A DNA stretch of 64,000 bases, taken from the NCBI GenBank assembly GCA_020137815.1, contig CM035360.1, forward strand, positions 6,882,001 to 6,946,000, read 5' to 3'. The DNA comes from Hormiphora californensis. Its lineage: Eukaryota > Animalia > Ctenophora. The position numbers and the translations under genes were made by a program. This document shows, piece by piece, positions 24,001 through 32,901 of this stretch; positions within the stretch are counted from its first letter, which is position 1, and each line of letters starts with the position of its first letter. The notes under the pieces are model-generated. The model did no database searches, had not been told where the DNA came from, and saw nothing but the letters and a program-made list of their open reading frames with translations.

Positions 24001-27000
24001 CAACCCCATCCAATCCCAACCATCCCAAAACTAGCCCCTCCCTGCCTCCCCCAAAGACCAGGCCCTACCCACTACTCCCTTATTAGGGAGAACAGAACAG
24101 CCCTGACCCCGGGCAAGAACCCCCTGAAGCCCCTGAACCACCCCTCTCATCCCACAGAAAACTCTGCCAGGTCCTGGAGTGAGTGCATGGCCTTACCCTT
24201 GCCTGAGCTGGAAACGTGCCCTGAAACATGTTACCTACCAACTAGTAGTAAAAAATTATAACGTGGGAAAGGAGTAAAAACAACTAGACAAACACCAAAA
24301 CCAACTCATGCTAAGCTCCAGTCCCTGGCCTGGACTAGTAATGATGAACGATAAATGACAAATACAACTAAATGAATGGTCAAACCAGATATGAAAGAAG
24401 AAAGTAAACCATGCTATGACAAAAAACTAAACAAACACCAGACACCATGTCCAACTCATGAGCAGCACCACTACACCCCCTAGACTACACTAGAAATGAA
24501 TAATGAACAACACAATAACATGAATGGTCTTATCTGATTTGAGAATGTAGATCTGTGACTGGTAGCTGGTCCTTTGTTTGCTGTATCTTCACAGTAGCAG
24601 GGGATGGCGGGACTTGGTAGATCGAGATATTTACAAAGTGGTGAAATTTGAGAAGGCCCGGAGAGGAGGGAGAGCCGTGACCTAACAATTACAACAAAAC
24701 AAGAAGTCTACTGTATATTTTACAGTATAAATCCTAAATCGCATTCTCTCTTCACTCTAATTTAAAATTATATCTCTCTCCCCTAGTTTGATTCGGTCCT
24801 GACCAAGATGTTAACGTTGGTACATATTTGTCCTTTTCCTTCTCATAATTCCATGTGAACTGTCCTTTCATCCCGTTCCCGAAAATGAGGTATGTTAACA
24901 AGATTTAAGTAATAATGTTTAAGGGATCATCAATTCAGCCCTAAATTACAAATTGGCTTAATTCAGTTTTCTGATGGTGCTAAATTGAACATGGTGGCCA
25001 CTTATGTCACACTTATACCCTAAGATTTAGTCGGGGCGCGCGCGGTTGTTTTTAAAATAAAAGTTGAAACGTGTCAGCAGTTCGTGGCGTGGTGTGTGTG
25101 TGCGCGTCTTAGCAACCCCTGAAGTTACTGTGACAGCGGGCCTAGCCCCTACGGGGCTTGCCCGCTTCGCGGGCAACTTTCTATTGCTGCATGAACACTT
25201 CACACTGTGGAAATTGTATTGCACATTTACAGACTTTCTATTGCTTGTTAAATGGTGCTAATGTGTGCTCTATATTTACGTATGTTTAACACTATGGGAC
25301 TATGAGTCACATGGTTTAGTGACAAACAAACAAACAAACAAATGAGTGCGACAACAAGCTGGTTTCTTGGGATTGGTCGGTGGATGGGGGATCATGATGA
25401 TGTATTGACCTGTCAGGCCATGAATGCTCTGCCAGATTACTTCACTCACCCAGCTCATTGTATAGGATTGAATCAGTTTGGACTCTCTCGCAGAACTTGT
25501 ACGTTTCACAGCACACTATAACGGGTTTATTGTAAGTGTTCGCTATAAGTCCCATCATAGCAGTACCAACTGGGCCCAACACGTAGCCGTTAGCGAGTAG
25601 GGCATCTGCAGCCAACATCACTTTAGTGACCTGTAGGGAGTGAGGAACAAGTGAGCACTGGGTGGAGAAAAGAACGTGTGAGATTCTTGAAAAGTGATTA
25701 GGCACCAACCACTTTTAAAAAAACCACGTTCCCTGGTCGATAGGGGAAGTTATGCGTCTTTGTAGTGTGTAGCTAAAGGTCTTATCCAGATTTCTTATCT
25801 GCTCCTAACAGATAAGACTTGATCTGGTTATCTGTTATATCACGTACCTTCTTCATAATGTAAGTGCAGGAGTTGATGTACACATAGGAGCAGGGTATTC
25901 CTGCTGCAGTTAACCTCTCACAGGAGGAAACACCGGACAGATCGGGTCTACTGTCAACCACCATCACTTTGAACTCCTTGTTCTGGGCTTTAGCTTCCAA
26001 TAGTATGTGTAGTATCAGCTGGGACCTGCAGGGGAGAGAAGGGCTTTAGCTTCCAATAGTATGTGTAGTATCAGCTGGGACCTGGGGGAGAGAAGGGAGA
26101 CATTAGTTTGGGATCGCAGTGGTGGATTTTGATTATGGTTTTTGGAACAAAAGTGGAATGGGCTTTTTTGGGAGAGGAAATGGATGTTTGAAAGGATATT
26201 TAAGTTGTATCATTACTGAATTTAGGGTTCATAATTCATATCTCTTAACTTACTTTTTGAATATCAGTATCGTGTCCCCATTGACGATTCGGTTTACCGC
26301 TTTCTCTGTTATCGACTTGCCAGCCAAATAAATGTTCTGAAAGCAAGACGGGTGTGTGTGTGCGAGTGTAAGGCGATATGATACCCCTCCTTCTCTTCAG
26401 CTCTTAGTGAGAGAAGGAGTCTGTGACACGGTAACCATGGTAACCATGCCCCAATGCCAATAAATATCAGGTTCCCTCCCTCCCTCTGCTGCTCTGTTTC
26501 TACTGCTCATGATCAAGGTGAATATATTCATGTGCTGAATGAGACCACGCCCCCTCTCTGCTAAGTAGTTGTGCACACTTATTGAAAGCAATGCACATAT
26601 ATTCATATTACAGGTCTCTTTCTCAATCCCTAGAGAATTGTGCAAGCAGCCAGACGAAACATTTCGGCCAATGCAATTTCCCAATCCTTCATAAACTCAG
26701 TTTATGTTGAAGTTAAAACAGTACATATTGTAACCTACTCCTTCACCTTGTCTGTTTGAATTGTAACCCTGTCTCTCTGTCTCAGGAGTTTCGTGCCCGA
26801 GAGGTGTCCTGGTACGGTCTGGTGCTGAGGTGGCAGTTCGACCCATCTGGTGATGGTGAGGTGACTAACAGTGATGTTGGGAGAAATAAGGGGTGTGTGG
26901 TGGAGGTGTATGAACTTGATCCAACCGGATCAACCAGACTCCTACATTACAGAGGTATATAGAATTGCACAGACCTCGTACCAAATTTTCATAAAATGTT

Positions 27001-32901: not shown

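What the first reader, a model, noticed from the sequence alone, without database searches (positions are those of the whole stretch)
26254..31114. Doubly nested genes: EIF2B4 (-) contains FANK1-like (+), which contains a GPCR (+)
Seen: EIF2B4 exons at 31114-30967 and 26336-26254 join in phase across a 4.6-kb intron. FN3 and ankyrin exons fill that intron almost end to end. The FN3 exons (to 27116) join the next exon (29508) in phase across a 2.4-kb intron that holds an intact 2-exon GPCR on the same strand. Known: nested intronic genes, including doubly nested ones, are reported to be frequent in ctenophores. Inference: the FANK1 pre-mRNA must skip the GPCR splice and poly(A) signals, while a housekeeping transcript runs antisense through both.
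Basis: partly seen in the sequence, partly recalled or inferred. Interest (0 to 1): 0.8.

Follow-up and report, generated by a model that had tools for sequence, protein, structure and literature searches.

The report
Comb-jelly gene within gene within gene
In DNA that likely comes from a comb jelly, a receptor gene sits inside an intron of a likely cilia gene, which in turn fills an intron of a housekeeping gene on the other strand; the layout is real and unusually tight, but hundreds of such double nestings are already catalogued in one comb jelly, and these three genes likely coexist by being switched on from separate promoters.

Summary
Confirmed. EIF2B4 (-, 10 exons, 445 aa) has a 4,630-nt intron holding the whole coding region of a FANK1-like gene (+, 9 exons, 331 aa), whose 2,390-nt third intron holds an intact class-A GPCR (+, 2 coding exons). 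All 17 host and FANK1-like introns, and the GPCR intron, are GT-AG and in phase. Mnemiopsis and Bolinopsis orthologs carry FN3 and ankyrins in one protein (53-56% identity), which removes the main refutation. Corrections: the acceptor is 29507, not 29508, and a first coding exon lies at 26509-26517. Additions: the FANK1-like stop is 25 nt from the host exon, so its 3' UTR probably overlaps it; an X-box palindrome lies 65 nt before its ATG; two Mnemiopsis frames that look unspliced run unbroken across the GPCR-hosting intron site, so the inner nesting is probably lineage-specific; host and GPCR introns share phase 2, so chimeras would be in frame. No transcript of the inner genes was seen. The class is known: 484 doubly nested genes in Hormiphora (PMC8527503). 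New member of a known kind; interest 0.3.

The parts
15005..32901 (-). Host gene, EIF2B4-like (eIF2B family); exons 32901-32811, 32661-32524, 32406-32283, 31885-31828, 31756-31623, 31114-30967, 26336-26254, 26025-25848, 25630-25450, 15207-15005; 445 aa
   Evidence: Open GT-AG model; Pfam IF-2B; a contig of run X1 from a related organism joins 31626 to 31114
26337..30966 (-). EIF2B4 intron 6, 4,630 nt, phase 0, host of both nested genes
   Evidence: its donor ranks 1 of 293 GTs and its acceptor 1 of 378 AGs on that strand (in-sample)
26431..26444 (.). Palindromic X-box-like motif, candidate RFX site, ending 65 nt before the FANK1-like ATG
   Evidence: 4 such motifs in 64 kb, 0.03 expected; the other three are not at evident ciliary promoters; fits the strict consensus in PMC2375033
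26509..26517 (+).
   Evidence: GT donor, phase 0, matches the start of the Bolinopsis ortholog
26786..27116 (+). FANK1-like FN3 exons 26786-26954 and 27020-27116
   Evidence: Pfam fn3 weak (E 0.09; E 0.0034 in the Mnemiopsis ortholog); close relatives P0002 and P0004
27117..29506 (+). FANK1-like intron 3, 2,390 nt, phase 2, host of the GPCR; apparently absent in Mnemiopsis
   Evidence: P0131 and P0132 read through this site
28035..29168 (+). Class-A (rhodopsin-like) orphan GPCR, coding exons 28035/28062-28195 and 28349-29168, phase-2 intron
   Evidence: 7tm_1 E 9.2e-7; seven hydrophobic segments; Atlas 0.95; Pleurobrachia bachei homolog 65% over 127 aa
29407..29468 (.). Small hairpin insertion: 27-nt inverted arms, 96% complementary, flanked by a 9-bp direct repeat; MITE-like
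   Evidence: I1, D13; sequence; single copy in the window
29507..30941 (+). FANK1-like ankyrin exons 29507-29603, 29716-29836, 30003-30113, 30260-30457, 30628-30712, 30833-30941 (stop)
   Evidence: 58-60% identity to orthologs over about 230 aa
30942..30966 (+). Only 25 nt between the FANK1-like stop and the EIF2B4 exon; the 3' UTR probably runs antisense over that exon
   Evidence: no AATAAA or ATTAAA on + until 32681; variant hexamers at 30974, 31066, 31312, 31378, 31380
31411..31484 (+). tRNA-Thr(CGT) gene, antisense inside the neighbouring EIF2B4 intron 5
   Evidence: ARAGORN; Rfam RF00005, 67 bits

Best explanation
Three intact protein-coding genes are stacked inside one another, and they likely work as separate transcription units: a likely housekeeping EIF2B4 spliced across the whole nest, a FANK1-like gene likely driven in ciliated cells from a short promoter with a predicted RFX site, and an orphan receptor gene that likely entered a lineage-specific FANK1-like intron later. 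Shown: the exon structures, phases, open frames, the single FN3+ankyrin protein in two other ctenophores, the 172-nt and 25-nt margins. Inferred: (1) the minus-strand EIF2B4 pre-mRNA meets the inner genes only as antisense intron and removes them by ordinary splicing between its two strongest sites; (2) the FANK1-like pre-mRNA passes the parallel GPCR because its own splice sites outcompete the GPCR's and no canonical poly(A) hexamer interrupts it; (3) the two inner genes are mostly on in different cells, so conflict is rare; (4) the FANK1-like 3' UTR overlaps EIF2B4 exon 6 in antisense; (5) the stacking is a tolerated product of insertion into introns in a compact genome, not a dedicated regulatory device.
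For: Models. One-gene status: orthologs KAL5248497.1 (56% of 317 aligned columns) and XP_063690503.1 (53% of 314); in a blastp against all 132 fetched proteins the 4 ctenophore records score 187-288 bits, the next best 99. FANK1 likeness: the three top Atlas clusters for the Mnemiopsis ortholog score 0.97-0.98, two are named FANK1 and one an FN3-domain protein with ankyrins. Mouse Fank1 is confined to ciliated airway cells and is reported as a direct Rfx2 target in Xenopus (PMC5936064, passages); RFX is reported up in ctenophore ciliated cells (bioRxiv 10.1101/2022.11.11.515474, one passage). Splice ranks. Late arrival: P0131/P0132 match the Mnemiopsis protein at 141 and 140 of 143 residues, run through the host-intron site and diverge exactly at the next intron. 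A MITE-like hairpin flanks the GPCR, as for 1,109 of 2,357 nested genes in Hormiphora. In mammals hosts tend to be broad and nested genes tissue-specific and younger (PMC11694760, passages).
Against: No transcript of the FANK1-like gene or the GPCR from this species was seen, so promoters, ends and cell types are all inferred. The X-box-like motif also occurs inside an EIF2B4 intron (32468), in what reads as an intron of a poly(A)-binding-protein gene (48347) and in a coding frame (11749), and PMC2375033 states that an unconserved X-box does not predict RFX control. A strong acceptor at 26400 (score 15.9) could mean trans-splicing or an upstream exon instead of a local promoter, though three upstream ATGs would then precede the start. 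No clear promoter or poly(A) site was found for the GPCR. The splice matrix rests on 17 sites and includes the sites it ranks. P0131/P0132 could be intron-retaining RNA rather than DNA, and loss of the intron in Mnemiopsis is as possible as gain here.
Confidence: 0.7

Rival explanations
1. The GPCR has no promoter of its own and is cut out of the FANK1-like pre-mRNA by spliced-leader trans-splicing, as a second cistron, so that the receptor is co-expressed with the cilia gene.
For: Same strand; leaders are on at least 56% of Hormiphora long reads (PMC8527503); no convincing 5' non-coding exon for the GPCR (the AG at 28020 scores -8.4); nearby, the UGT gene's AATAAA at 32964 lies about 60 nt before the EIF2B4 ATG, an operon-like spacing.
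Against: No strong acceptor just before either GPCR ATG (28020: rank 78 of 136; 28056: rank 108); a TATA-like element lies at 27792; a leader would be expected on a stand-alone transcript too, so it does not discriminate.
Confidence: 0.12
2. FANK1-like and GPCR exons form one modular locus: because both introns are phase 2, alternative splicing also makes an FN3-six-helix receptor (364 aa) and a one-helix membrane-anchored ankyrin protein (293 aa).
For: Both cross-joins are open to a natural stop; by the hydropathy profile both joins fall after helix 1, where a class-A receptor has its first cytosolic loop (recalled topology), so FN3 or ankyrins would face the cytosol.
Against: Phase 2 is common here (5 of 17 introns), so a match has about a 30% chance by accident; none of the three Mnemiopsis isoforms nor the Bolinopsis protein shows receptor sequence; the join falls inside the last strand region of the FN3 part and removes receptor helix 1; no read shows it.
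Confidence: 0.08
3. The GPCR is a young, silent or dying insert, so only the single nesting is functional.
For: No poly(A) hexamer; Tyr of the NPxxY motif and the helix-6 CWxP motif are missing (sequence; motif names recalled); 29 bits is just under Pfam's 30.5 cut-off (exon 2 only).
Against: 326 codons without stop or shift, a canonical intron, seven hydrophobic segments, conserved helix 1-4 motif residues and a 65%-identical homolog in P. bachei.
Confidence: 0.07
4. The arrangement is an assembly artefact.
For: No reads of this species could be laid; two PABP-like segments look duplicated elsewhere in the window.
Against: No N; a false join would need four breakpoints that all fall in introns and keep both outer genes in order and in phase.
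Confidence: 0.03

Closest known systems
Doubly nested intronic genes of Hormiphora californensis (Schultz et al. 2021, PMC8527503; abstract and passages read, supplements not readable)
   Same: A gene in an intron of a gene in an intron; parallel and antisense orientations mixed; transposon-like DNA beside the nested gene.
   Different: This particular trio is not named in the main-text passages read; it may stand in the paper's supplementary list, which could not be opened. The margins here (172 and 25 nt) are very tight and probably force exon overlap of the mRNAs.
Mammalian host/nested gene pairs (PMC11694760, passages; PMC3192792, abstract and outline)
   Same: Broad host with tissue-specific nested gene; possible interference through intron retention or early polyadenylation.
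   Different: Two levels of protein-coding nesting in under 5 kb; a trans-splicing organism; no interference shown here.
[quoted passage not shown]
   Same: One N-terminal FN3-like domain followed by ankyrin repeats, about 330 aa; nearest Atlas clusters of the Mnemiopsis ortholog.
   Different: Orthology to vertebrate FANK1 not tested by a tree; lobate orthologs carry a long acidic insert in the FN3 part that this species lacks; databases name them 'hypothetical' or 'UACA-like'.
Nested genes of the glass sponge Aphrocallistes vastus (PMC10282587, passages)
   Same: Compact non-bilaterian genome with about 12% nested genes; the authors call about 10% nested exonic bases normal across animal phyla.
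   Different: Double nesting is not discussed in the passages read.

Membership tests
Nested intronic gene (definition of PMC8527503) | Coding exons lie wholly within one intron of another gene | tested here: met
   FANK1-like 26509-30941 within 26337-30966; GPCR 28035-29168 within 27117-29506
Nested intronic gene (definition of PMC8527503) | The transcript stays within the intron, allowing 15% overlap with host exons at each end | tested here: inconclusive
   Only 25 nt after the FANK1-like stop and no canonical poly(A) hexamer there; transcript ends unknown
Doubly nested gene | The host of the inner gene is itself one gene and is nested | tested here: met
   FN3 and ankyrin parts are one protein in Mnemiopsis and Bolinopsis and colinear with the window's exons
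Doubly nested gene | All three genes are transcribed and spliced as modelled | tested here: inconclusive
   The one run listed (X1, 80-95% alike, RNA by guess) touches only EIF2B4 and UGT
FANK1 | Single N-terminal fibronectin type III domain | tested here: inconclusive
   Pfam fn3 below cut-off: E 0.09 on one window exon, E 0.0034 and 0.039 on orthologs; Atlas neighbours support it
FANK1 | C-terminal run of ankyrin repeats | tested here: met
   Pfam Ank above cut-off in 3 of the 4 ankyrin-region frames scanned; 4-5 matched stretches in orthologs
FANK1 | Groups with vertebrate FANK1 in a tree | not tested
   No vertebrate FANK1 sequence was returned by any search
FANK1 | Expressed in ciliated cells under RFX/FoxJ1 control | not testable with these tools
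   Only an X-box-like motif at 26431
EIF2B4 (eIF2B delta) | IF-2B family domain in a complete frame | tested here: met
EIF2B4 (eIF2B delta) | Delta subunit rather than alpha or beta | not tested
   Rests on recalled likeness (long charged N-terminal extension, C-terminal motif order); no call compared subunits
Class-A (rhodopsin-like) GPCR | Seven membrane helices matching 7tm_1 | tested here: met
   E 9.2e-7 over profile 19-259 of 260, 29 bits against a 30.5 cut-off with exon 2 alone; seven segments; Atlas 0.95
Class-A (rhodopsin-like) GPCR | Conserved helix motifs (names recalled: N in helix 1, LAxxD, DRY, W in helix 4, CWxP, NPxxY) | tested here: inconclusive
   Helix-1 N, LAASD, the Arg of DRY, helix-4 W and NP are present; CWxP and the Tyr of NPxxY are not seen
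Class-A (rhodopsin-like) GPCR | Ligand binding and G-protein coupling | not testable with these tools
   No assay

The most novel reading that the evidence does not exclude
The inner nesting is a working exon-shuffling device: a receptor gene that landed in a lineage-specific phase-2 intron of FANK1 shares that phase, so the locus also makes an FN3-six-helix receptor and a membrane-anchored ankyrin protein in ciliated cells, showing how nested genes can breed new chimeric membrane proteins in ctenophores.
Probability: 0.08. Interest if true: 0.7.

Novelty: new member of a known kind. Interest (0 to 1): 0.3.

Why it matters
As it stands it is a clean, compact example of a known genome feature, and a warning for annotation: gene finders that forbid nesting would split the FANK1-like gene or lose the receptor. 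It is a handy test locus, because one 5-kb stretch holds antisense nesting, parallel nesting and a probable 3' overlap, so long reads and single-cell data would show directly how a comb jelly keeps such genes apart, which PMC8527503 left open. The apparent lack of the host intron in Mnemiopsis would let the inner nesting be dated. It also points to a FANK1-like gene in ctenophores that databases leave unnamed. Only in-frame chimeras, if found, would make it surprising.

Tried and rejected
No RNA holder was listed for the stretch. The one run offered, X1, is 80-95% alike and so not this organism; 8 and 16 of 337,919 contigs were laid, on EIF2B4 and UGT only, none on the FANK1-like gene or the GPCR. 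One X1 contig has 159 unplaced letters, exactly 46+83+30, the length expected if its mRNA runs from exon 6 through exon 7 to exon 8 without an extra exon: length arithmetic only, and it does not show the intron in that organism. No whole genome is held, so paralogs and genome-wide counts could not be examined. A search with ankyrin exon 30262-30456 alone gave 0 of 15 candidates. The FN3 exon search gave 7 hits, of which 2 are true relatives (P0002, P0004) and 5 were dropped as repeat-rich chance hits. The metagenome scan gave 1 locus of 46 stretches, L001, an 18-residue chance match with no other exon, so nesting in other species could not be read on DNA. PDB searches returned generic ankyrin proteins and no FANK1 among the 60 rows shown each time. 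Frames at 27211-27432, 27529-27753 and 27555-27683 (-) were considered as a fourth nested gene or transposase: no Pfam hit, rejected for now. A missing acidic-linker exon in intron 3 was sought by tblastn with both orthologs: none. A GPCR 5' non-coding exon with acceptor 28020 was considered and is not supported. No 12-mer of the published Hormiphora leader occurs in the window. Rfam finds only the tRNA in 24000-34000. The supplement of PMC13331133 gave only cnidarian-style gene names, no ctenophore gene positions (file cut when stored). A search for FANK1 + EIF2B4 + nested + ctenophore (3 of 4 terms) found 0 papers; ctenophore + nested terms found 1 and 4 papers.

Full report
Observation. The stretch 24500-33000 was read and exon models were built from the window. 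EIF2B4 exons 31114-30967 and 26336-26254 join in phase 0 over a 4,630-nt GT-AG intron. The host is complete: ten exons from 32901 to 15005, 445 aa, no internal stop, with Pfam IF-2B hits on four exons. That it is the delta subunit rests on recalled likeness, not on a call. Its last intron is 10,242 nt, so the gene has two large introns; the other seven are 71-508 nt.

The middle gene. A profile search with the exon translations scored 7,997 candidates and listed 120 of 2,643 hits; two were ctenophore proteins: Mnemiopsis KAL5248497.1 and Bolinopsis XP_063690503.1. Both hold the FN3 part and the ankyrin part in one chain, and both match the window's eight exons in order. Identity is 56% of 317 and 53% of 314 aligned columns. 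The Bolinopsis start pointed to a 9-nt first coding exon at 26509-26517, giving 331 aa. The nearest Atlas clusters of the Mnemiopsis protein are FANK1 or FN3-ankyrin clusters at 0.97-0.98; Pfam fn3 stays under its cut-off, and no tree was made, so 'FANK1-like' is the right label.

The inner gene. Two coding exons (28035 or 28062 to 28195; 28349-29168) give 326 or 317 aa with seven hydrophobic segments, 7tm_1 at E 9.2e-7 and Atlas neighbours of class A at 0.95. The only homolog found, 1 of 2,676 candidates, is a partial Pleurobrachia bachei protein at 65% over 127 aa. With the orthologs above, this places the window in a ctenophore, probably nearer Pleurobrachia than the lobates (inference).

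(a) The FANK1-like ATG is 172 nt from the host's 3' splice site and its stop 25 nt from the host's 5' splice site. No AATAAA or ATTAAA follows on that strand until 32681, so its 3' UTR probably runs antisense over EIF2B4 exon 6. (b) A palindrome at 26431-26444 fits the strict X-box consensus of PMC2375033 (passages). Four such motifs occur in 64 kb against 0.03 expected, but the other three lie in an EIF2B4 intron, in a likely PABP intron and in a coding frame, and that paper says an unconserved X-box is not predictive. It is a lead that fits FANK1 biology: mouse Fank1 is confined to ciliated airway cells and is reported as an Rfx2 target in Xenopus (PMC5936064, passages). (c) A strong acceptor at 26400 may mark trans-splicing or an upstream exon, but three ATGs lie between it and the start. 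(d) After the GPCR stop there is none of 13 poly(A) hexamer variants, whereas EIF2B4 and the UGT gene each have AATAAA and a third gene tested has none. (e) A 62-nt hairpin with a 9-bp flanking repeat sits between the GPCR and the next exon. (f) Two ENA frames from the Mnemiopsis cluster, P0131 and P0132, match the Mnemiopsis protein at 141 and 140 of 143 residues, cross the site of the GPCR-hosting intron without a break and diverge at the next intron position. If they are DNA, Mnemiopsis lacks that intron and the inner nesting is lineage-specific; whether by gain here or loss there is open. (g) The host intron and the GPCR intron are both phase 2, so both cross-joins are open (364 and 293 aa); phase 2 is 5 of 17 introns here, so the match may be chance.

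How it likely works. The host splices over the nest between the best-scoring donor and acceptor on its strand (1 of 293, 1 of 378). The FANK1-like gene passes the receptor because its acceptor (1 of 136) and donor (2 of 172) outrank the receptor's (4 and 11), and nothing canonical tells it to stop. The matrix is rough: 17 sites, those of the outer genes included; left out one at a time, the 29507 acceptor still scores 13.9 against 8.6. The three genes likely have separate promoters and the inner two are likely on in different cells, the pattern reported for mammalian pairs (PMC11694760, passages). None of this is shown by transcripts: no RNA holder was listed, and the one run offered is another organism and touches only EIF2B4 and UGT. 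Rivals are processing of the receptor from the FANK1-like pre-mRNA by trans-splicing (0.12), in-frame chimeras (0.08), a dead receptor (0.07) and misassembly (0.03).

Comparison with what is known. PMC8527503 (abstract and passages) reports 2,357 nested genes in 1,654 hosts in Hormiphora californensis, 484 doubly nested, 1,109 with a transposon on at least one side, many parallel to the host, and already notes that parallel nesting needs separate processing. PMC10282587 (passages) calls about 10% nested exonic bases normal for animals. The trio itself was not found in print, but the supplementary list of PMC8527503 could not be read and may hold it. The scan's notes held nothing on this place, on look-alike stretches or under these words.

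Verdict. New member of a known kind, interest 0.3. The boldest reading not excluded is a phase-matched locus that makes chimeric membrane proteins (probability 0.08, interest 0.7).

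Noticed in passing
window 25449-15208 (EIF2B4 last intron, 10,242 nt): A second very large EIF2B4 intron. It holds exon-like plus-strand segments with AG/GT ends (about 18154-18296, 18423-18521, 19920-20050, 21116-21200, 21842-21938, 24600-24690, 24786-24870) that may be another nested gene, plus a reverse-transcriptase-like fragment near 16415-16801 (likeness recalled). Of the frames scanned there only one gave a weak Pfam hit under E 0.01 (DUF6455, E 0.008).
   Followed up: partly
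window 31098-31253 and 25985-26097: Tandem copies of EIF2B4 exon-start junctions in the upstream introns (34 nt x 4.6; 56 nt x 2.1), giving decoy acceptors; the join at 31114 is the one seen in the X1 contig. Earlier notes of this scan call such repeats 'mirages'.
   Followed up: partly
window 31411-31484: tRNA-Thr(CGT) gene antisense in EIF2B4 intron 5, about 470 nt past the FANK1-like stop; it could bound the FANK1-like 3' end.
   Followed up: no
window 34856-32901: An intronless UDP-glycosyltransferase gene (Pfam UDPGT E 1e-23) lies just upstream of EIF2B4 on the same strand; its AATAAA (32964) is about 60 nt before the EIF2B4 ATG, which is preceded by an acceptor-like AG: operon-like spacing, or EIF2B4 has an upstream exon beyond UGT. 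One X1 contig skips 277 nt inside the UGT frame.
   Followed up: no
window 14170-15005: A 238-codon plus-strand frame without a family hit under E 0.01 ends about 120 nt from the EIF2B4 stop, tail to tail; EIF2B4's AATAAA is at 14902, 16 nt from that stop.
   Followed up: no
window 11749, 26431, 32468, 48347-48393: X-box-like palindromes are far above chance in this window (4 against 0.03), some in introns of housekeeping genes: RFX sites or a small dispersed repeat.
   Followed up: partly
window 27649-27724: Second imperfect inverted repeat (25-nt arms, 84%) in FANK1-like intron 3, upstream of the TATA-like element at 27792; possibly a decayed small transposon on the GPCR's other flank.
   Followed up: no
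window 39215-39895 and 42796-43647: Two exons of a poly(A)-binding-protein-like gene (likeness recalled) appear twice with near-identical frames: local duplication or assembly haplotype.
   Followed up: no
P0051, P0065 against window 27020-27116: Lobate orthologs carry an acidic insert of roughly 85-140 aa inside the FN3 part, a few residues before the point where this species has the GPCR-hosting intron.
   Followed up: partly
window 30915-30961: A 14-nt duplication, 33 nt apart, spans the FANK1-like C-terminus and the EIF2B4 donor region; the protein ends about 10 residues earlier than its orthologs.
   Followed up: no
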